From Octopus vulgaris (taxonomy: Eukaryota): DNA of 64,000 nt. Both the position numbers and the translations under genes were made by a program. The notes beneath the pieces are model-generated. The model had not been told where the DNA came from and did no database searches. It saw only the letters and a list, made by a program, of their open reading frames with translations. Numbering within the stretch: position 1 is the stretch's first letter; each line of letters starts with the position of its first letter. The DNA is taken from positions 73,098,001 to 73,162,000 of the forward strand of contig OX597815.1 of NCBI GenBank assembly GCA_951406725.2, read 5' to 3'. Positions 33,239-45,720 of this stretch are shown here, piece by piece.

Positions 33239-34266
33239 ATATATATATATATTTAAAAGGAGATGTGGGACACGAGTTGTGATATATAAAAAAAGGAAAT
33301 GAAGAAAATGCTGACAAAATAATTTAAGTAAGGGAGAGTGTATTTAATTAGATGAAAGTTCTTTTTACCGGTTGCGCATTTGTTATGCCTATCAAAAGAT
33401 ATTTTTTAAGAGAGATAGAGTTCCTTTCTGATAGATTTTTTTCTCTTATCTGACTTTATGTTGGGTTTGCTGTCTCTTATATGTGAAAAAAGAGGCTCCA
33501 GAGTTGTTTAAGATTTGCTTGGTTTCGCGCCTAAAATTTCTTGTGGACAATGGTCAATACAATTTTGATTGGTCATTATAAAGGGGTCACGTGAATGTTT
33601 GAATGGAGAAGTTGGTGTTGGGGTAAGAAAATAGGCTCCAGAGATGTTAAAATTTGGCTAGTGTCGCGCCTAAAATTTCTTATTGGTCATAAAAAGAGGT
33701 CACGTGGATGTGGTCATAATAGAGAGGCCACGTGAATGTTTAGAATAAATGTTGGTGTGGGTGGTGTATGGAGTTTTCGAAAATAGCGTTGTTGAAAATT
33801 CTTATTGTTCAGGCTGGTCAGTAGACGTCATGTGGATATTTTAAATAGCTTTTTAGCGCGTAGTTAAGGAGTGTATTTTCCGCTTGACTGAATTTGAGCT
33901 GGATAAGTAAGTTCGTTTAGGACAGGAAGAGCTATATGTATGTATGTGTGCGCTGTGTGTGTGTGTGTGTGTGTGTGTGTTTATATGTATGTTGGATCGC
34001 GCGCGCTTGTATATATGTGTGCGTGTGTGGGTACAATTTTCAATATTTATAGTTCTGCTGGCCTTGTGCCTGTATCGGGAAGCAACGTGTTTGTGTGAAG
34101 TCAATATTTACAGTCATTTCCAAAAAATGGTGTTGGATGTTTTGCACCCGTATCAAATTATGTGTATGTGTGGAACCATATATTTGCGTGTGTCATGGTG
34201 TTAATATCTGGGTAAAAGTGTGTGTAGGGTGTGTGCAGGTGTAAGTGTGTTTGTTGTGGGTTCGTG

Positions 34267-34731
34267 TTAGGGGGATGTGTTTAGAAGTGGTCTGTATTTA
34301 TTAATAAGGTGGGATTCCATGGTTATTCGCTGGGTATGAGTGGCATTGTCTTTAAATTTGTAGAGGGGAAAGATTCTAAAATTGGGATGAAGTTGTGCGG
34401 CACAGGTATCAATATGTGCACTAAGTGCTATTTTTCTGTATTCCTGTATTTTTATTTGGGATCTGTGGACAGTCATGCGTTGGCGGAGGCTATTTTTAGT
34501 TTGGCCTATGTAGTGTTCATTACAGCCCGAGCAAGTTAAGACATATACTAGGTTTTCTGATGCGCATGTGAAGTTGTGTTTTACTGTGAAACGTTGCCCT
34601 TGTTTAAAAAGGAATTCCGGACCTTCTATTAGGTTGATGCATATACCACAGTTGGGTCTATTGCATTTGTTTACTGTGGGTTTAGTTGTTGTGGTTGGCA
34701 GTACTTTGGCATTTGTTAGGATGTTTTTCAA
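34267..34731 (-). pseudogene. Inverted duplicate of the PLE GIY-YIG endonuclease domain
   Basis: 154 aa essentially identical to the C-terminus of the 35084-36193 ORF. Confidence 0.9.
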
Positions 34732-34746
34732 TGGGACGATCTAGAT

Positions 34747-35139
34747 ATGCTCAACCACCTCCCCAATACACTTCTTGCTGAACAAACCCTGCTAGTAACA
34801 TTCGATGTAGTTAATCTTTACTCCAACATCCCCCACAACCTAGGAATAGAAGCTATCCAATTTTGGCTGGATAATTACTCCAACGAACTCCCACACCGCA
34901 TCAAAAAGGAATTTATTTTAGAAGGACTCAAATTCATCTTAGAGAATAATTTCTTCACCTTCAACAACAAATTCTACAGACAGAAATCAGGGACGGCAAT
35001 GGGAACGGAAACAGCTCCCACTTACGCCAACCTAGTCATGGGATACCTGGAAATCACCCTCTATAATAACGTTCTTAACCAATGTGGCACCACTCTCCAC
35101 ACACACACACACACAGAAGAACTGGAAGAGATATCTTGA
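34747..35139 (+). CDS. PLE reverse transcriptase, N-terminal part (5'-truncated; frameshifts in a (CA)9 run)
   Basis: LVTFDVVNLYSNIP, NFFTFNNKFYRQKSGTAMG and APTYANLVMG are PLE RT motifs. Confidence 0.9.
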   Translation: MLNHLPNTLLAEQTLLVTFDVVNLYSNIPHNLGIEAIQFWLDNYSNELPHRIKKEFILEGLKFILENNFFTFNNKFYRQKSGTAMGTETAPTYANLVMGYLEITLYNNVLNQCGTTLHTHTHTEELEEIS

Positions 35140-36193
35140 TGACTGCTTCATCCTTTGGCCCGAAACCATCGAGAAGCTTAAAGAATTTCACACCCTTATA
35201 AATGGGCTCAACGCAAACATTATTTTCACAATGGAATACAGCCCTCAACAAATTCCCTTCCTCGACATCCTCATTAAAATTCACAACAAAAAAATAGAAA
35301 CAGACATATACTACAAGCCCACAGACTCCAAGCAATACCTCCCTTTCAATTCATGCCACCCTAGACACGTTAAAATTAACATTCCCTACAACTTAGCCAA
35401 GAGAATTTGCACTATAGTCTCCAATAAAAACACCCGTCTCTTACGTCTACAAGAACTTAAGGACACATTAACAAGCAGGGATTACCCCACGTCACTAATT
35501 GACAATGGGATCCAAAGCGCCCTAAAACTCAGCACACATGAACTTAGACGCCCTAAACCTGTTACATCGAAACCCCATACTCTACCATACATCTCTACAC
35601 ACAACCCCCTCAACAATGAAGCTTTTGACACCATCCTCCAGAACATTCCTGTATTAAAAAAGGACCATAGAATGAACCAAATCCTCCCAACACACGAAAT
35701 CATAAAGAGCAAAAGGCAACCCAAATCATTGAAAACCATCCTAACAAATGCCAAAGTACTGCCAACCACAACAACTAAACCCACAGTAAACAAATGCAAT
35801 AGACCCAACTGTGGTATATGCATCAACCTAATAGAAGGTCCGGAATTCCTTTTTAAACAAGGGCAACGTTTCACAGTAAAACACAACTTCACATGCGCAT
35901 CAGAAAACCTAGTATATGTCTTAACTTGCTCGGGCTGTAATGAACACTACATAGGCCAAACTAAAAATAGCCTCCGCCAACGCATGACTGTCCACAGATC
36001 CCAAATAAAAATACAGGAATACAGAAAAATAGCACTTAGTGCACATATTGATACCTGTGCCGCACAACTTCATCCCAATTTTAGAATCTTTCCCCTCTAC
36101 AAATTTAAAGACAATGCCACTCATACCCAGCGAATAACCATGGAATCCCACCTTATTAATAAATACAGACCACTTCTAAACACATCCCCCTAA
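35084..36193 (+). CDS. PLE RT C-terminal part + Cys-rich linker + GIY-YIG endonuclease (Neptune-like architecture)
   Basis: WKRYLDDCF, IPFLDI, YYKPTD..YLPFNSCHP, CNRPNCGIC, NLVYVLTCSGCNEHYIGQT..LRQRMTVH, E..LI..Y.P.LN. Confidence 0.93.
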   Translation: MAPLSTHTHTQKNWKRYLDDCFILWPETIEKLKEFHTLINGLNANIIFTMEYSPQQIPFLDILIKIHNKKIETDIYYKPTDSKQYLPFNSCHPRHVKINIPYNLAKRICTIVSNKNTRLLRLQELKDTLTSRDYPTSLIDNGIQSALKLSTHELRRPKPVTSKPHTLPYISTHNPLNNEAFDTILQNIPVLKKDHRMNQILPTHEIIKSKRQPKSLKTILTNAKVLPTTTTKPTVNKCNRPNCGICINLIEGPEFLFKQGQRFTVKHNFTCASENLVYVLTCSGCNEHYIGQTKNSLRQRMTVHRSQIKIQEYRKIALSAHIDTCAAQLHPNFRIFPLYKFKDNATHTQRITMESHLINKYRPLLNTSP

Positions 36194-36475
36194 CACGAAC
36201 CCACAACAAACACACTTACACCTGCACACACCCTACACACACTTTTACCCAGATATTAACACCATGACACACGCAAATATATGGTTCCACACATACACAT
36301 AATTTGATACGGGTGCAAAACATCCAACACCATTTTTTGGAAATGACTGTAAATATTGACTTCACACAAACACGTTGCTTCCCGATACAGGCACAAGGCC
36401 AGCAGAACTATAAATATTGAAAATTGTACCCACACACGCACACATATATACACGCGCGCGCCCCAACATACATAT

Positions 36476-36517
<42 letters not shown>

Positions 36518-36629
36518 CGCACACATACATACATATAGCTCTTCCTGTCCTAAACGAACTTACTTATCCAGCTCAAATTCAGTCAAGCGGAAAATACACT
36601 CCTTAACTACGCGCTAAAAAGTTATTTAA

Positions 36630-36980
36630 AATATCCACATGACGTCTACTGACCAGCCTGAACAATAAGAATTTTCAACAACGCTATTTTCGAAAACTCC
36701 ATACACCACCCACACCAACATTCATTCTAAACATTCACGTGGCCTCTCTATTATGACCACATCCACGTGACCTTTTTTATGACCAATAAGAAATTTTAGG
36801 CGCGACACTAGCCAAATTTTAACATCTCTGGAGCCTATTTTCTTACCCCAACACCAACTTCCATTCAAACATTCACGTGACCCCTTTATAATGACCAATC
36901 AAAATTGTATTGACCATTGTCCACAAGAAATTTTAGGCGCGAAACCAAGCAAATCTTAAACAACTCTGGAGCCTCTTTTT
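36630..36980 (+). promoter_or_regulatory. Candidate PLE pLTR promoter: duplicated module with E-box, CCAAT and E2F-like motifs (mirror copy at ~33490-33835)
   Basis: CACGTG at 36736, 36764, 36874; CCAAT at 36783, 36895; GGCGCGAAA at 36936; TGACGT at 36640. Function is inferred only. Confidence 0.4.
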
Positions 36981-37171
36981 TCACATATAAGAGACAGCAA
37001 ACCCAACATAAAGTCAGATAAGAGAAAAAATCTATCAGAAAGGAACTCTATCTCTCTTAAAAAAATATCTTTTGATAAGCATAACAAATGCGCAACCGGT
37101 AAAAAGAACTTTCACCTAATTAAATACACTCTCCCTTACTTAAATTATTTTGTCAGCATTTTCTTCATTTC

Positions 37172-37213
<42 letters not shown>

Positions 37214-38085
37214 ACACACAGAGGGTTGGCCAAATGTCACCCGACAGTAAATCAAAATTCCATAAATACTATCATTAATTCTGTATTGACTCGAATGGAA
37301 AAATGTGCCACTCAAGAAGGCTTTCCGTTTGAACAATTTTCATGCTGTTTCATATTTAGATACTTTTATTATATTCATTTAGTTGTTAAACATAAATAAA
37401 TCTTGAAATTAAATGGTTTTGATTTACTGTCAGGTAACTTTTCACCAACTCGAACTGGTAACTTCCACTATTCCTTGCTATGGATTATCATCAAACATTC
37501 TCATTTGAAGCTGCTTTTGAATATTACCTATAACTGTGTTTTCCATTTGAACATGGATCTATCTAACGCATTCCTATTCTATTCTGATCCTTCCACCATT
37601 CTTGACAAGCTGGAATGCACTAATATCCTCGATTGGGGACTTTCCCTTATTTTTACATTTTTCTGACTTTTCCCACTCTAATGACGGGATACTCAATATG
37701 ATGATTCACACACTTGGCTATTCCAGAAACAGCTGTAAGAAACTCTGTTGTATATCTATATCCTCTATCTAATTGAATGTCTTTTTCAAGATATGCCAAA
37801 CGCTTTGGTTTTTCATTCTTACTTTAACCTATATCTACCAACTCCAGGAAAAACCAGCTCTAACCTCTTCTGATAGGCAGTCTCAACATCACACATTCAA
37901 TTGTAGTTCAGACCGGAGTTTTAGAGGTAAACCAAGCTGAGCACTCATAGTACATACCTATTACTTTAAATCAGTTGACGAATACTCCCTACATATTCTA
38001 TATAATATATATATATATATTTTATATATATATATGTAATATATATATATATATATATATATTTTTTATATATATATAATATATA

Positions 38086-38143
<58 letters not shown>

Positions 38144-38355
38144 GAAATATTAAAATAACTAAGTCTCTCTAAAAGAGAACAGCGGCAGCGTTCCCGGAAA
38201 ATAATAGTTATCGCCATACTAATATGGCATTCTTATAAAAATAAGAAAAAAGCTGTCCGCTTATTAGCTCCATGAGGCCATCGCCTTAAGTTAGCTATTT
38301 GATACACAAACTGTATCCATATAACCTTCGAACAAGGGAGGTCAGTCGATCCACA

Positions 38356-38426
38356 CTACTTGACCGGCAGCTACAGACGCGTTTCGGGGTATTGCCCCTT
38401 TTCAATGCAGCGTAGCCAGCCAGTAG
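38356..38426 (-). ncRNA. Type I hammerhead ribozyme (U3:A8 variant), copy 1
   Basis: Reverse complement of 39215-39285. Confidence 0.85.
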
Positions 38427-38717
38427 GTGTCGCTTCCGACAATCTCTGTTCGATGGTTTTATTTACCTAGTTTCGGTGGAATACATCCACTTGTTTTCAA
38501 TAATAGAAATATTAAAATAACTAAGTCTCTCTAAAAGAGAACAGCGGCAGCGTTCCCGGAAAATAATAGTTATCGCCATACTAATATGGCATTCTTATAA
38601 AAATAAGAAAAAAACTGTCCGCTTATTAGCTCCATGAGGCCATCGCCTTAAGTTAGCTATTTGATACACAAACTGTATCCATATAACCTTCGAACAAGGG
38701 AGGTCAGTCGATCCACA

Positions 38718-38788
38718 CTACTTGACCGGCAGCTACAGACGCGTTTCGGGGTATTGCCCCTTTTCAATGCAGCGTAGCCAGCCAGTAG
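38718..38788 (-). ncRNA. Type I hammerhead ribozyme (U3:A8 variant), copy 2
   Basis: Identical to copy 1, offset by 362 bp. Confidence 0.85.
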
Positions 38789-39214
38789 GTGTCGCTTCCG
38801 ACAATCTCTGTTCGATGGTTTTATTTACCTAGTTTCGGTGGAATACATCCACTTGTTTTCAATAATAGAAATATTAAAATAACTAAGTCTCTCTAAAACG
38901 TCTGTAGCTGCCGGTCAAGTAGTGTGGATCGACTGACCTCCCTTGTTCGAAGGTTATATGGATACAGTTTGTGTATCAAATAGCTAACTTAAGGCGATGG
39001 CCTCATGGAGCTAATAAGCGGACAGCTTTTTTTCTTATTTTTATAAGAATGCCATATTAGTATGGCGATAACTATTATTTTCCGGGAACGCTGCCGCTGT
39101 TCTCTTTTAGAGAGACTTAGTTATTTTAATATTTCTATTATTGAAAACAAGTGGATGTATTCCACCGAAACTAGGTAAATAAAACCATCGAACAGAGATT
39201 GTCGGAAGCGACAC

Positions 39215-39285
39215 CTACTGGCTGGCTACGCTGCATTGAAAAGGGGCAATACCCCGAAACGCGTCTGTAGCTGCCGGTCAAGTAG
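39215..39285 (+). ncRNA. Type I hammerhead ribozyme (U3:A8 variant), copy 3; predicted cleavage after C39265
   Basis: CTACT-GGCTGGC-tac-GCTGCA | TTGAAAA | GGGG caata CCCC | GAAAC gc GTC^ | TGTAGC-t-GCCGGTC-a-AGTAG: extended helix I, helix II and palindromic helix III all pair. Confidence 0.87.
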
Positions 39286-39437
39286 TGTGGATCGACTGAC
39301 CTCCCTTGTTCGAAGGTTATATGGATACAGTTTGTGTATCAAATAGCTAACTTAAGGCGATGGCCTCATGGAGCTAATAAGCGGACAGCTTTTTTCTTAT
39401 TTTTATAAGAATGCCATATTAGTATGGCGATAACTAT

Positions 39438-39535
<98 letters not shown>

Positions 39536-40474
39536 TGTATGTATGTATGTATATATGAAAAGTTAGACAGAGAAGAGAAAAGTAGACGAAAACCGGGCGA
39601 AAACAGAGCGCATAAAAAAGCGAGACAAAAACACGATACAAGGAACATTCGCAGCTGACTTTCTCATCAGTTGGTATCCGAGACGTCATAGTGGTTTCAC
39701 GCTATTAAAACCAAGACCACTGTTATCTGACAGCAGCGCCTGCGCATGAATGTGTGTGAGGACAGGACAAAATAATATGGCGTGTAGAATAAGAAATAAT
39801 GACAAGATTTAACAGACAATGAATGGTACATACACAATAGAAAATGCCTTATGGCTGTACAATAGGCAAGGGGAATAATTGTTTGTATTCAGTATTAAAA
39901 CGATACAATACACACACACACAAAAAAAAAACCTTTTCGGCTATCAAGACAGACATAGTGAGGTAGCGCAAAGAAATGGAAAAAGTCCTTGGCGGACGGA
40001 ACACAAACGTGTCTGGCTGGGTCAGTAAAAAAGAACGACACACTTTGACTGGACACCGGTCACATGGTAGGAGAGAGGAAGGGTGGTGGAGGGACTAAGG
40101 GATGGGAGAAAGAAAGAGAGATACATAAGAGTAAGAAAGAGGAAAGGAGAGAGGACAAGGTCCAAGGGAGGCAATTAAGGAGGAGAGGGAAGAAAAGAAA
40201 AAATTCAGGGAATATTTTTTAGTTAACTAAACAAAGCAAGTGTGGTTGCGCTGCAAACAATATTTCAAAAGTTTGACAGAGTAGGGAAAAATAGACGAAA
40301 ACTGGGCGAAAACAGTGAAGTACTGGAGTACGTAGTAGGCGGTCAGAGATAGTCGTGTCTTTACTGGTTTTACTAAGTATACTGTATAACAAAGTGGGCG
40401 TTATAAAAATTCAACATTTTAAGGATTATAACAGTGACAACGAGGATTTAAACAACTCACGATGAATTAATAAA

Positions 40475-41200
40475 ACCACCCTCCTCAACTGTAATAATTT
40501 TTTTACGTGAATTGTTTGCAAGATTTGGCATCCCAGACAAGATAGTGCCTGACAATGGAACGCAATTTGCGTCTAGCGAATTTTAAACATTTTGTGAACA
40601 TATTACTACGCAGTAGAATATATTACTACGGTGCCTTACCATCCAAGATCTAATGGTAGAATGCTTTGTCGATACCTTCAAAAGAGCCCTTAGAAAATCG
40701 AATAAGGAAGTCACGGATCAGGTAGCTCTACAACAATTTTAAGAGTGGACCGTGTGACACCAAATCCGAATACACTAGCAGGTATATCACCAGCGGAGCT
40801 GATGTTTGCAAGGAAAGTAAAATCAGTCTTTGATAAATTGCTACCTGGCAAGAAAAGAAAAAGTGCCAGGGAAGACATAGCAAGATTCTTTAAAGTTGGT
40901 GAAAAGGTGTATACGAGGGTATACAAGAATGGAAAGCAGGGAAGATGGCATAATTATTAAATGCATAGGTAAAATGATGTATTGGATAAAAAGTTGAAAA
41001 GACATACAAAAGAAACGCACAAAACAACTAAAAAAGAGATTCGTGGAAAGCGAACCAAAGAAGTTGGAGGAACCGATGGATTGGTTGTACGATGCGTTCC
41101 AAGTACCAACACTACTGCAGGTGACTGAAAACAGACGTACAATTAGAGGAAAAGAAAACACAGAGTTCCTGAAAATAGATGCCAAGCGAAAAAATACGAA
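40475..41200 (+). mobile_element. Ty3/Gypsy LTR-retrotransposon integrase remnant
   Basis: LRELFARFGIPDKIVPDNGTQFASSEF, PYHPRSNG, FVDTFKRAL, TPNPNT..GISPAELMFARK; contains stops and frameshifts. Confidence 0.9.
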
Positions 41201-43829: not shown

Positions 43830-45720
43830 TTGAGAAAATGGCTAAAGAACCTGGGTGGGGCCCTGATCAGTTTAGATCAGTGTAAAGTTTTCGATGGGGT
43901 CGACCATCTATACCTGGCGGCGGTCCTCATGGCAGCTGGTTTCGGGCCTGTATTCAGGGGCTGGATCGCTGCAATGTACAGCGGCATCTGTTCAGTGTGA
44001 CTAGAGAGAACGGTCACCTCTCAGAGCCGTTCATCATCATGCGCTCTGTCCGGCAGGGTTGCCCCCTCTCGTTTCTCTTGTATGTACTGACTCTCGAGCC
44101 ATTAATACACAAACTGGAGGTGTATAGAGGCATCTCGCGTGAGCTAGGATGTGGGAGATACGTGCCGGCATATGCCGACGACGTTACCGTAGTGGTGTCG
44201 GATCATAAACACATAGAAGTGATCGGTACCGCTTTCAGGGACTACGAGGTGGTTTCAGGAGCAACAGTTAACTAGGAAAAATCAGTGGGCTTGTGGCTCG
44301 GCACCTGGAGAAGTAAGTCCATGCCGTCCAACTGCGTCGCTTGGCGCGCTGGACGGACGGACAGGTTAAATTGCTCGGTGTCTGGTTCGGTCCGGCCCTC
44401 CAGATGGACAAAAACTGGGACGAGAGAAAGCTATCCCTGAAAGGTCGGGCAGAGGTGGCTAACGCATATAGCACGTCCGTCATCTACTATCGCTTGACCG
44501 TCGTGCCTTGTCCTGGCCATCGTCTGATTACGCCGGAGCGAATACTGTCCCACTTCTTGTGGAAGGGATGCATCCCGATGGTAGCGGTCTATCTCATGTC
44601 AGCACCCGCTGAGTGGAGGCCTGGGCATGCCGGGATTGGTGATGCGCAGATATGCGCTGAGGCTACAACATCTCCAGTGCTTCCCTGTTGGTGAACAGAA
44701 GTGGTCGCCGTTCGCCATACACATATTTTCGCAGCTAGTTTCTTTAACGGAGCTGCAGTCCTGTGTAAAACGGAGACCGCGCGGAAGCATCTGGAAAGTG
44801 GAATGTTTTTAAGCACTCGCAGCCCTCAGCCAAGCGGACACTGCGATAGATGGAACGTCCACTTTAGCTTTTTATAGAGGATTAGTGGAGGAAAAGTGCA
44901 ACGACGTTCTTTGGGGAGACCTTCGTCGTCGAAGAAAATCAACTAGCCGCTCTTTTCCGGAGAACTTTCGGGCCGGGACCGATGGATAATTTCCAAAGAT
45001 CTCTAGCTTGGCAGTGCTACTGGGGAGCTTTGCCTGTTCGAGATAAACTTTACAGGCACGGAAGTGCCATCAGCCGAGCATGTCCGAAATGCACGCAGGA
45101 CGACGAAACGGACCTGCATGTACTCGTCCAGTATCCGAGCATTGCTGACCAGTGGTTTTATGTCGAACACTTGCTGATTCGTGTGGGACGGATCCGGCTG
45201 TCAACTGAATCCATCGTGAAGATCGCACCGCCGCCTTCCTTTAACCAGGAAGGAAAGGCTGTGTTTATATGCCTGGTTGCCATGGCGAAAGAGATTGTAT
45301 GGTGGACGAGATTGAAGGGGCTGAAGACAGACACCTTTCTCGTTGGCCAATCCCTGATGAACTTCATCAAGTTTCACTTGAAAAGGAAAATAAGGGTAGA
45401 GACGGAAGTGTTATCTTCTAGCCAGTTTACTGAAAGGTGGATGAAAGTGGCGAGAATGATGCGAATGAACGAACCTGCCCTGAGCATACGCCTGTAGTTG
45501 GGAAAAAGGAAAGGAAAAAAGCACCTACCCCAAAAGTCAGGGCGCTTGGCCCTTGTTGGAGTTTCTCCTGTATTAGGAGGGCTGCATCCTTCATGTTATC
45601 ACATACCTTTATCGCATTTCACCGTCTTTTCCAATTTTCCCTAATCTTTTATATACCCCACCAAAACAAATTGTCAATTGCTCTTGTGATGTTCCCCTCG
45701 TTTATGCCCGTGTGACTAAC
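43830..45720 (+). mobile_element. L1/Tx1-like non-LTR retrotransposon, degenerate RT + C-terminal zinc-binding region + 3' UTR
   Basis: LDQCKVFDGVDH, SVRQGCPLS.LLYVLTLEPL, YADDVTV, VKLLGVWF, LSLKGRAEVAN, ALPVRDKL..CPKC...ETDLH; many disruptions. Confidence 0.92.

What the first reader, a model, noticed from the sequence alone, without database searches (positions are those of the whole stretch)
38141..39440. Candidate retrozyme: 362-bp tandem monomers, each with a complete hammerhead ribozyme carrying a U3:A8 core covariation
Seen: a non-coding 362-bp unit repeated ~3.6 times almost identically. Each full unit has GCTGCA-TTGAAAA-GGGG(caata)CCCC-GAAAC(gc)GTC^TGTAGC, and helix I extends by two further paired segments (GGCTGGC/GCCGGTC, CTACT/AGTAG) around a small internal loop. 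The rest of the monomer is packed with short hairpins (gataca..tgtatc, ttcttat..ataagaa, gccata..tatggc, gtgga..tccac, tgtcg..cgaca). Established: UUGAAAA swaps the C3:G8 pair of CUGANGA for U3:A8, a known natural covariation; animal non-LTR retrozymes are tandem units of a few hundred bp with type I hammerheads that self-cleave to monomers and circularise. Inference: this is a young retrozyme family, likely missed by CUGANGA-only searches, that would give a ~362-nt linear or circular RNA.
Basis: partly seen in the sequence, partly recalled or inferred. Interest (0 to 1): 0.9.

Follow-up and report, generated by a model that had tools for sequence, protein, structure and literature searches.

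The report
Self-cutting jumping RNA inserted head-to-head
This is one of several hundred copies of a 362-letter non-coding jumping element with a hammerhead ribozyme that is predicted to cut itself only in pairs; its copies sit head-to-head in AT repeats with one long and one short end, which likely records a Penelope-type enzyme copying one probably circular RNA into both sides of a DNA break.

Summary
The 362-bp unit and its U3:A8 hammerhead are real, but the locus is not a plain 3.6-fold tandem. It is 2.1 units on the minus strand joined head-to-head to 1.5 units on the plus strand, with three complete ribozymes and both outer ends in (TA)n. The genome holds 730 exact cores. The fold is kept by compensatory changes in older subfamilies. 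Helix III is a palindrome, and the natural dimer's unconstrained best fold is a double hammerhead.

Among 113 loci, 74 of 75 two-armed insertions with typed ends have one arm ending at unit position ~238 and the other at ~175. This is the Penelope 'tail' signature, also seen in 11 of 11 two-ended coding Penelope insertions here, which carry U3:A8 cores too. Both arms usually share one haplotype, and the window's private variant is in all four units. Simple fold-back fails for 49 of 74.

Best reading: a non-LTR retrozyme mobilised by a Penelope-like element that primes both broken DNA ends from two fixed sites on one RNA, probably often a circle. The class, the U3:A8 core and the Penelope link are published; this insertion rule was not found in print. 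Cleavage, expression, circles and the partner are untested.

The parts
38138..38898 (-). Left arm, 761 nt: unit positions 202-362, 1-362, 1-238 (position 1 = first base after the predicted cut). The outer end at 38138 is the long 'A' end (position 238).
38899..39440 (+). Right arm, 542 nt: starts 4 nt before a cut site (CGTC), one 363-nt unit, then positions 1-175. The outer end at 39440 is the short 'B' end (position 175).
38370..38411 (-). Type I hammerhead core, U3:A8; predicted cut after C38376
38732..38773 (-). Type I hammerhead core, U3:A8; predicted cut after C38738. Forms a double hammerhead with the core at 38370-38411 in the unconstrained best fold.
39230..39271 (+). Type I hammerhead core, U3:A8: helix I 6 bp, helix II 4 bp, palindromic ACGCGT helix III; predicted cut after C39265
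38376..38737 (-). The one complete 362-nt monomer lying between two full ribozymes (candidate excised or circular RNA); circular fold z -6.1
38138..38200 (-). 63-nt 'tail' (unit positions 176-238) between the two inferred reverse-transcription start sites, present at the left end only
39434..39440 (+). B site, CTATTAT, single-stranded just after the GCCATA/TATGGC hairpin
39135..39141 (+). Internal copy of the A site, CTATTAT, in the loop of the TTTTAATA/TATTGAAAA hairpin
38894..38903 (.). Head-to-head junction of the two arms (TAAAA|CGTCT)
37999..38140 (.). (TA)n target, left flank
39438..39556 (.). (TA)n/(TATG)n target, right flank
38929..38929 (+). Locus-private G>T at unit position 27, also at 39292, 38711 and 38349 (all four units that cover it, in both arms)
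33245..37185 (.). Neighbouring coding Penelope-like element (RT + GIY-YIG; 5'-truncated, frame broken near 35100). Same head-to-head, tail-at-one-end, (TA)n anatomy. Hammerhead-like motif TTGATAA..GCAA-CCGG-TA at about 37072-37101. A separate insertion, not part of the retrozyme.

Best explanation
This is a dispersed non-coding retrozyme whose copies lie head-to-head in (TA)n with one long and one short end, and it is likely spread by a Penelope-like element's enzyme that would prime both ends of a cut target from two fixed sites on one RNA, probably often a circle. Steps: (1) Inferred: a tandem arm is transcribed. (2) Predicted: two hammerheads pair through the ACGCGU palindrome, cut after GUC and release a 362-nt monomer; a lone monomer or monomer circle lacks a stable helix III and would be protected. 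(3) Inferred from other retrozymes: a host ligase closes the circle. (4) Anatomy shown, enzyme inferred: a Penelope RT/GIY-YIG protein makes a staggered cut in AT-rich DNA; one 3' end starts copying at position ~238 (A), the other at ~175 (B), each with 2-3 nt of TAT pairing. (5) Shown: each arm runs precisely through 0-5 cut sites and stops at a scattered point. (6) Microhomology shown, joining inferred: the two cDNA ends anneal at 2-6 nt microhomology, giving the head-to-head product with a tail at one end only.
For: Ribozyme: canonical geometry. In 22 natural copies 99.5% of cells pair, with 5 pairs changed on both sides, including G10.1-C11.1 to A-U. Helix III switches ACGCGT/ACTAGT/ACCGGT but stays palindromic. 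The unconstrained best fold of the natural dimer is the double hammerhead, shared helix pair probabilities 0.83-1.0.

Penelope route: of 113 loci, 79 are simple two-armed head-to-head insertions: 74 A+B, 1 A+A, 0 B+B, 4 with one other end (p 2e-21 on the 75). 147 of 169 A/B ends run into (AT)5. Duplications of 6-13 bp at the four sites with two unique flanks. 11 of 11 two-ended insertions of two coding Penelope families show one tail and one no-tail end, and both families carry U3:A8 cores. Two internal start sites bounding the tail, with both strands cut and extended, are shown in vitro for another Penelope element (PMC11167929).

One template: arms agree in subfamily in 22 of 25 informative loci against about 8% when shuffled. 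The 27T variant is in 4 of 4 units; the only other genomic hit is on another haplotype.

Endless template: 228 of 229 crossings of the cut site are precise. Only 9 of 202 arms stop at positions 1-3 against 260 crossings. Crossings per arm fall 61/29/5/2/3. 69 distinct centre junctions in 74 loci; the 5 repeated pairs differ in arm lengths or A/B sides. Centre overlap of 3 nt or more in 42 of 64 against 5.6% at random.
Against: No cleavage, expression or circle data. The partner protein is not identified; the three coding families examined show no significant similarity to the unit outside the core. Some templates were at least dimers with unlike units (L137, L079, L075, L021, L063), so a monomer circle is not universal. 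In a sister family, two LINE-carrying copies (L221, L237) have an upstream unit without the LINE, which fits read-through transcripts. L072 shows that arrays also grow and homogenise after insertion. L131 has arms that differ at position 352. Subfamily agreement could reflect subfamilies active at different times, and inverted arms can convert each other. In vitro, uncleaved RNA was the dominant substrate of the Anolis element, hammerhead cleavage was not needed, and start sites did not differ between strands. In the 2026 preprint 8 of 9 predicted dimers did not cleave. The compensatory pairs come mostly from one split between two subfamilies, so they are few independent events.
Confidence: 0.62

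Rival explanations
1. Same Penelope twin priming, but the template is an uncleaved or partly cleaved linear multimer from tandem source loci; circles are by-products or absent.
For: Unlike units within one template. LINE-carrying copies with a LINE-free upstream unit. Uncleaved RNA dominant in vitro. Excess of arm 5' ends at the cut site, 9 of 179 against 1.5 expected, p 2e-5, which shows that some templates were cut linear RNA.
Against: Most sampled arms hold only 1-2 cut sites, yet arms rarely stop at the cut site and no inherited centre junction was seen. Many haplotypes are uniform along 4-6 units, including a private one. No long master array among the listed hits (only the first 100 places of each pattern list were visible).
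Confidence: 0.25
3. The unit is only the pLTR of a coding Penelope element not yet found, and the copies are its truncated ends.
For: Same ends and target as coding elements. One copy abuts a Penelope ORF (L127).
Against: Arms are head-to-tail repeats of the unit itself. Of 88 loci searched with two Penelope proteins, four had a hit nearby and only one abutted; 11 of 11 other copies of that family continue into their own ORF end and 3' region. An ancestral origin from a pLTR remains likely.
Confidence: 0.04
4. A satellite-like repeat spread at the DNA level, or an assembly artefact, with an inert hammerhead look-alike.
For: Post-insertion duplication exists (L072). L007 lies in mirrored flanks.
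Against: Fixed A/B ends, target duplications, distinct junctions, compensatory changes, and presence in public runs of 12 studies under 7 organism labels.
Confidence: 0.02

Closest known systems
Metazoan non-LTR retrozymes (Cervera & de la Pena 2020, PMC7229834; Li et al. 2026 preprint 10.64898/2026.07.22.740005)
   Same: Non-coding unit of a few hundred bp, under 50% GC, one canonical type I hammerhead per unit, tandem copies, target duplications longer than 4 bp, co-occurrence with Penelope elements.
   Different: U3:A8 core. Short dispersed arms joined head-to-head, not long head-to-tail arrays. Two fixed 3' ends, one per side, and (TA)n targeting. The parts read of these papers propose Penelope mobilisation and circles as templates but give no insertion-site evidence.
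EN+ Penelope-like elements and their 'tail' (Frangieh 2024, PMC11167929; Craig 2021, PMC8557442; Arkhipova 2013, PMC3846280)
   Same: Inverted 5'-truncated copy head-to-head, tail at one end, AT-rich or (TA)n target, two internal start sites, hammerhead upstream of them.
   Different: No ORF. Tail of 63 nt against 30-40. The one-A-one-B rule is near absolute here (74 of 75) and both arms share one haplotype; published text says only 'often' or 'optionally' at one end.
U3:A8 hammerheads (Perreault 2011, PMC3088659; Schistosoma Cercyon element in Cervera 2014, PMC4209133)
   Same: C3-G8 replaced by U3-A8, reported as active.
   Different: Here it sits in a canonical 6/4/2-bp ribozyme of a retrozyme clan, and is shared with two coding Penelope families of the same genome.
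Newt/axolotl satellite and ASBVd double hammerheads (as described in PMC6155905 and PMC7229834)
   Same: Weak palindromic helix III, predicted cleavage as a dimer.
   Different: Dispersed recent insertions, not a massive satellite.
L1 twin priming (recalled, not from a call)
   Same: Both target ends prime on one RNA and give an inversion.
   Different: Both priming sites are fixed and internal, and the arms overlap on the template and can each exceed one unit.

Membership tests
Type I hammerhead ribozyme | Core N3-U-G-A-N-N8-A, G12-A13-A14-A15.1, U16.1-H17 with a 3:8 pair | tested here: met
   UUGAAAA..GAAA..UC with U3:A8; core definition and U3-A8 variant in PMC3088659
Type I hammerhead ribozyme | Helices I, II, III around the core, kept by compensatory change | tested here: met
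   99.5% paired, 5 two-sided changes; helix III invariant in that alignment, palindrome kept across families
Type I hammerhead ribozyme | Self-cleavage after H17 | not testable with these tools
   Indirect only: 9 of 179 arm 5' ends at positions 1-3 against 1.5 expected
Type I hammerhead ribozyme | Loop 1-loop 2 tertiary contact | not tested
   An internal loop in helix I and a 5-6 nt loop II exist; the contact was not modelled
Metazoan non-LTR retrozyme | Tandem units of about 150-450 bp, each with a type I hammerhead | tested here: met
   362 bp; 39 of 100 counted arms hold two or more cut sites
Metazoan non-LTR retrozyme | Non-coding, GC under 50% | tested here: met
   41% GC, longest frame 38 aa; PBS/PPT not searched separately
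Metazoan non-LTR retrozyme | Target duplications longer than 4 bp where visible | tested here: met
   9, 12, 6 and 13 bp at L006, L044, L059, L069; hidden in (TA)n elsewhere
Metazoan non-LTR retrozyme | Expressed as linear and circular monomers | tested here: inconclusive
   Only contigs of runs guessed to be RNA; a 362-base return in one contig cannot tell a circle from a tandem
Penelope-type insertion | Inverted 5'-truncated copy, head-to-head | tested here: met
   79 of 113 loci simple two-armed, 29 single-armed, 5 complex
Penelope-type insertion | Tail between two start sites, at one end only | tested here: met
   74 of 75; older subfamilies 7 of 9 two-armed loci A+B by eye, none with like ends
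Penelope-type insertion | AT-rich or (TA)n target | tested here: met
   147 of 169 ends
Autonomous Penelope-like element (unit as its pLTR) | RT + GIY-YIG ORF joined to the repeat | tested here: not met
   only three of many Penelope families were compared

The most novel reading that the evidence does not exclude
These insertions are a readable record of how Penelope enzymes integrate: a protein dimer grips one ribozyme-made RNA circle, primes one broken DNA end at site A and the other at site B, and runs both round the circle before joining the cDNAs. This would explain in one step the tail, the head-to-head inversion and the tandem repeats of Penelope elements and retrozymes, and give direct genomic evidence that animal ribozyme circles are transposition templates.
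Probability: 0.42. Interest if true: 0.82.

Novelty: new variant of a known kind. Interest (0 to 1): 0.62.

Why it matters
Retrozymes, U3:A8 cores and their kinship with Penelope elements are already described, so the family alone is a new member. What is added is mechanism. The papers read leave open how retrozymes are mobilised and how Penelope elements get their tail and inverted ends. A short, young, several-hundred-copy element lets this be counted: one A and one B end per insertion, both arms from one haplotype, arm lengths independent, and the cut site crossed precisely. That argues against the fold-back model and makes a sharp in vitro test (two barcoded RNAs, circle against linear, on a TA target) possible with a 362-nt substrate and intact Penelope ORFs from the same genome. 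It also shows that CUGANGA-only or Rfam screens overlook a clan of over a thousand ribozyme cores in this genome.

Tried and rejected
Rfam: no hammerhead hit at E<=1, only microsatellite-driven miRNA hits. Plain 3.6-fold tandem: rejected.

C3:G8 forms within the family: none among the first 100 of 1150 hits shown.

Donor for 27T: the single other hit (L126) has a different haplotype.

Neighbouring Penelope element or its 73% relative as parent: no BLAST similarity, local alignment within shuffle range. L127 Penelope family as parent: a one-off chimera. The 5.6 kb between two cores at L221 as a Penelope ORF: it is a LINE.

RNA: no RNA holder listed on record. Contigs of four runs guessed to be RNA cover most of the unit but cannot show level, ends or circularity; not used as evidence.

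One search is void (structure string out of register; redone). The constrained monomer energy is not meaningful, because the program does not allow a 2-nt loop.

Earlier scan findings: none for this genome.

Literature searches found no paper on this family, on a one-A-one-B rule or on twin priming by Penelope elements. The library lacks most subscription journals. The supplement of PMC7229834 could not be read and the preprint's supplements are closed, so a related family or figure may be there. The host looks like a cephalopod from recall (genome size, microsatellites); this was not tested.

Full report
OBSERVATION. The stretch 38138-39440 holds a 362-bp unit at 99-100% identity, but in two orientations: 761 nt on the minus strand and 542 nt on the plus strand, joined head-to-head at 38898/38899, with both outer ends running into (TA)n. 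Three complete cores are present, and a descriptor scan of the whole window finds no other. Numbering the unit from the first base after the predicted cut, the left arm ends at position 238 and the right arm at 175. Searches use a register one lower before position 124. The unit is 41% GC with no frame over 38 aa. Rfam does not detect the ribozyme.

THE RIBOZYME. Helix I is 6 bp, helix II 4 bp, and helix III 2 bp around GC. This is the geometry called canonical for metazoan type I motifs in PMC4209133 (passages seen), which also reports U3-A8 in a Schistosoma Penelope element. PMC3088659 (passages) reports U3-A8 as natural and active. The genome (2.8 Gb) has 730 exact 42-nt cores and 1150 matches to a looser pattern; both reversed controls give 0. 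An older subfamily at about 85% identity (15 exact cores) keeps the fold: in 22 natural copies chosen by me (12 young, 10 old) 99.5% of 770 cells pair and 5 of 35 pairs change on both sides, while slid controls pair 24-47%. These changes come mostly from one subfamily split. Helix III reads ACGCGT, ACTAGT or ACCGGT in related families: 376 of the 385 hits in the 14 classes printed are palindromic, with overlapping loci counted twice. Without constraints the natural dimer folds into a double hammerhead with a shared 6-bp helix III, whereas the monomer circle forms helices I and II only. Cleavage itself is predicted, not shown.

THE INSERTIONS. About 27 were picked by BLAST score, most of the rest in order along the first contigs, and all needed at least one core or full unit, which biases towards longer arms. 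79 are simple head-to-head pairs, 29 single arms and 5 complex. Of the 79, 74 have one end near 238 (A) and one near 175 (B), one is A+A (in mirrored flanks), none is B+B and 4 have one other end. Ends cluster at 238/235 and 175/172-179. Both sites read CTATTAT and are single-stranded in the fold, while most other TAT triplets are unused. 147 of 169 A/B ends run into (AT)5 (100 loci). Four sites with two unique flanks show 6-13 bp duplications. Centre junctions overlap by 3 nt or more in 42 of 64 flush cases against 5.6% at random.

LINK TO PENELOPE ELEMENTS. PMC8557442 (passages) and PMC3846280 (passages) describe an inverted truncated copy, a tail often at one end, and (TA)n bias as Penelope hallmarks. 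PMC11167929 (main text read) shows that the tail is the span between two internal start sites and that both target strands are cut and extended. A coding element 1 kb to the left of the finding (RT + GIY-YIG) has the same anatomy. It and a 73%-identical family have intact copies, show one tailed and one untailed end in 11 of 11 two-ended insertions, and carry U3:A8 cores 60-75 nt upstream of their short end. They share no significant sequence with the unit outside the core, and a third family abuts it once by accident. So the route is well supported and the partner is unknown. PMC7229834 (parts 2-4 of 6 read) and the 2026 preprint (parts 1-3 of 5 read) propose Penelope mobilisation from co-occurrence and phylogeny and leave the mechanism open.

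ONE TEMPLATE, TWO PRIMERS. Subfamily markers agree between the arms in 22 of 25 informative loci, against about 8% when arms are shuffled. Among variants seen in only one of 100 loci and covered by two or more units, 98 are single (post-insertion), 9 are in all units and 4 in some. The window's 27T is in all four units that cover it. The genome has five matches in all, and the fifth lies on another haplotype; the four laid runs read G at 39292. Fold-back needs one arm inside the other: 49 of 74 loci cannot be fold-backs of the tailed arm and 18 fit neither direction, as expected for independent lengths. Caveats: subfamilies active at different times, conversion between inverted arms and later unit duplication (L072) can each mimic part of this, and L131 has discordant arms.

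CIRCLE OR MULTIMER. For a circle: 228 of 229 crossings of the cut site are precise; only 9 of 202 arms stop at positions 1-3 against 260 crossings; crossings per arm decay 61/29/5/2/3 in 79 loci, nearly all picked by position; no inherited junction was found; uniform haplotypes run along up to six units; and a dimer-only ribozyme would spare the monomer circle. Against, or for multimers: L137, L079 and L075 have unlike units at matching places in both arms, and L021 and L063 alternate, so some templates were dimers or longer; the small excess of stops at the cut site (p 2e-5) means some were cut linear RNA; LINE-carrying copies of a sister family read into a LINE-free unit; and uncleaved RNA was the main substrate in vitro for the Anolis element. 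I put circles as a frequent template at about 0.6, one RNA for both arms at about 0.7, and Penelope-type twin priming at about 0.85. A second cluster of 5' ends at positions 36-48 (23 of 179 against 6.4 expected) lies at the base of the long stem and at a TTCGAA palindrome; a pause or annealing hot spot is my guess.

EXPRESSION. No holder is on record as RNA, and the contigs laid cannot show ends or circles, so this is left open. Near-identical sequence occurs in 12 studies under 7 organism labels.

VERDICT. A real, young non-LTR retrozyme with a known core variant: a new variant of a known kind. The value lies in the insertion rule, which I did not find in print (searches; open-access library only; two sets of supplements unseen) and which makes the Penelope integration mechanism directly testable. 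Interest 0.62.

Noticed in passing
window 33245-37185: Young coding Penelope-like insertion (RT, CX4CX2C linker, GIY-YIG), 5'-truncated and frameshifted in a (CA)n run near 35100. Intact copies exist elsewhere. Its 3' region has a hammerhead-like motif with U3:A8 and GCAA in place of GAAA, kept in most fetched copies.
   Followed up: partly
L116-L125 (e.g. L117:6475-6506): Second coding Penelope family, 73% identical in protein, with the same TTGAAAA core as the retrozyme and an ACCGGT palindrome; one tailed and one untailed end in 5 of 5 two-ended insertions.
   Followed up: partly
L188-L198, L200, L221-L228: A distant 357-bp retrozyme family with U3:A8 core, ACTAGT palindrome, ends near 177-180 and 217-227, and similar hairpins before both ends.
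   Followed up: partly
L221:1775-7705, L228, L237-L242: A complete 5.3-kb LINE (zinc knuckle, AP endonuclease, RT) sits inside a unit of the 357-bp family with a 20-bp duplication. The composite recurs at 8 places, most with retrozyme-type ends: a LINE apparently carried as cargo by the Penelope route.
   Followed up: partly
L229, L231-L233, L235, L236: Older relatives at 75-88% identity; helix III changes from ACGCGT to ACTAGT in four of them while staying palindromic.
   Followed up: yes
L120:550-1075, L201-L220: Abundant element (1593 candidates) with a canonical CUGAUGA hammerhead, long helix II and ACATATGT palindrome, often head-to-head in (TA)n; not shown to be tandem.
   Followed up: partly
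L127:1420-3900: One retrozyme arm fused to the endonuclease region of an older, broken Penelope copy; insertion with deletion or a template switch.
   Followed up: yes
L051/L123, L090, L131-L138, L159: Haplotypes with a G-U pair in helix II (positions 350 or 352) include several of the longest arrays (4-6 units); weaker cleavage giving longer templates is possible, but sampling was biased and it was not tested.
   Followed up: no
window 43886-45497: Broken LINE (RVT_1, zf-RVT) fragments.
   Followed up: no
window ~40450-40600: Looks by eye like a decayed LTR-retrotransposon integrase fragment; recalled resemblance, not tested.
   Followed up: no
L007: The only A+A locus lies in flanks that mirror each other, possibly a larger inverted duplication or an assembly fold.
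   Followed up: no
window, 32 other open frames of 100 aa or more: No Pfam family above its cut-off; no host exon recognised in the window.
   Followed up: partly
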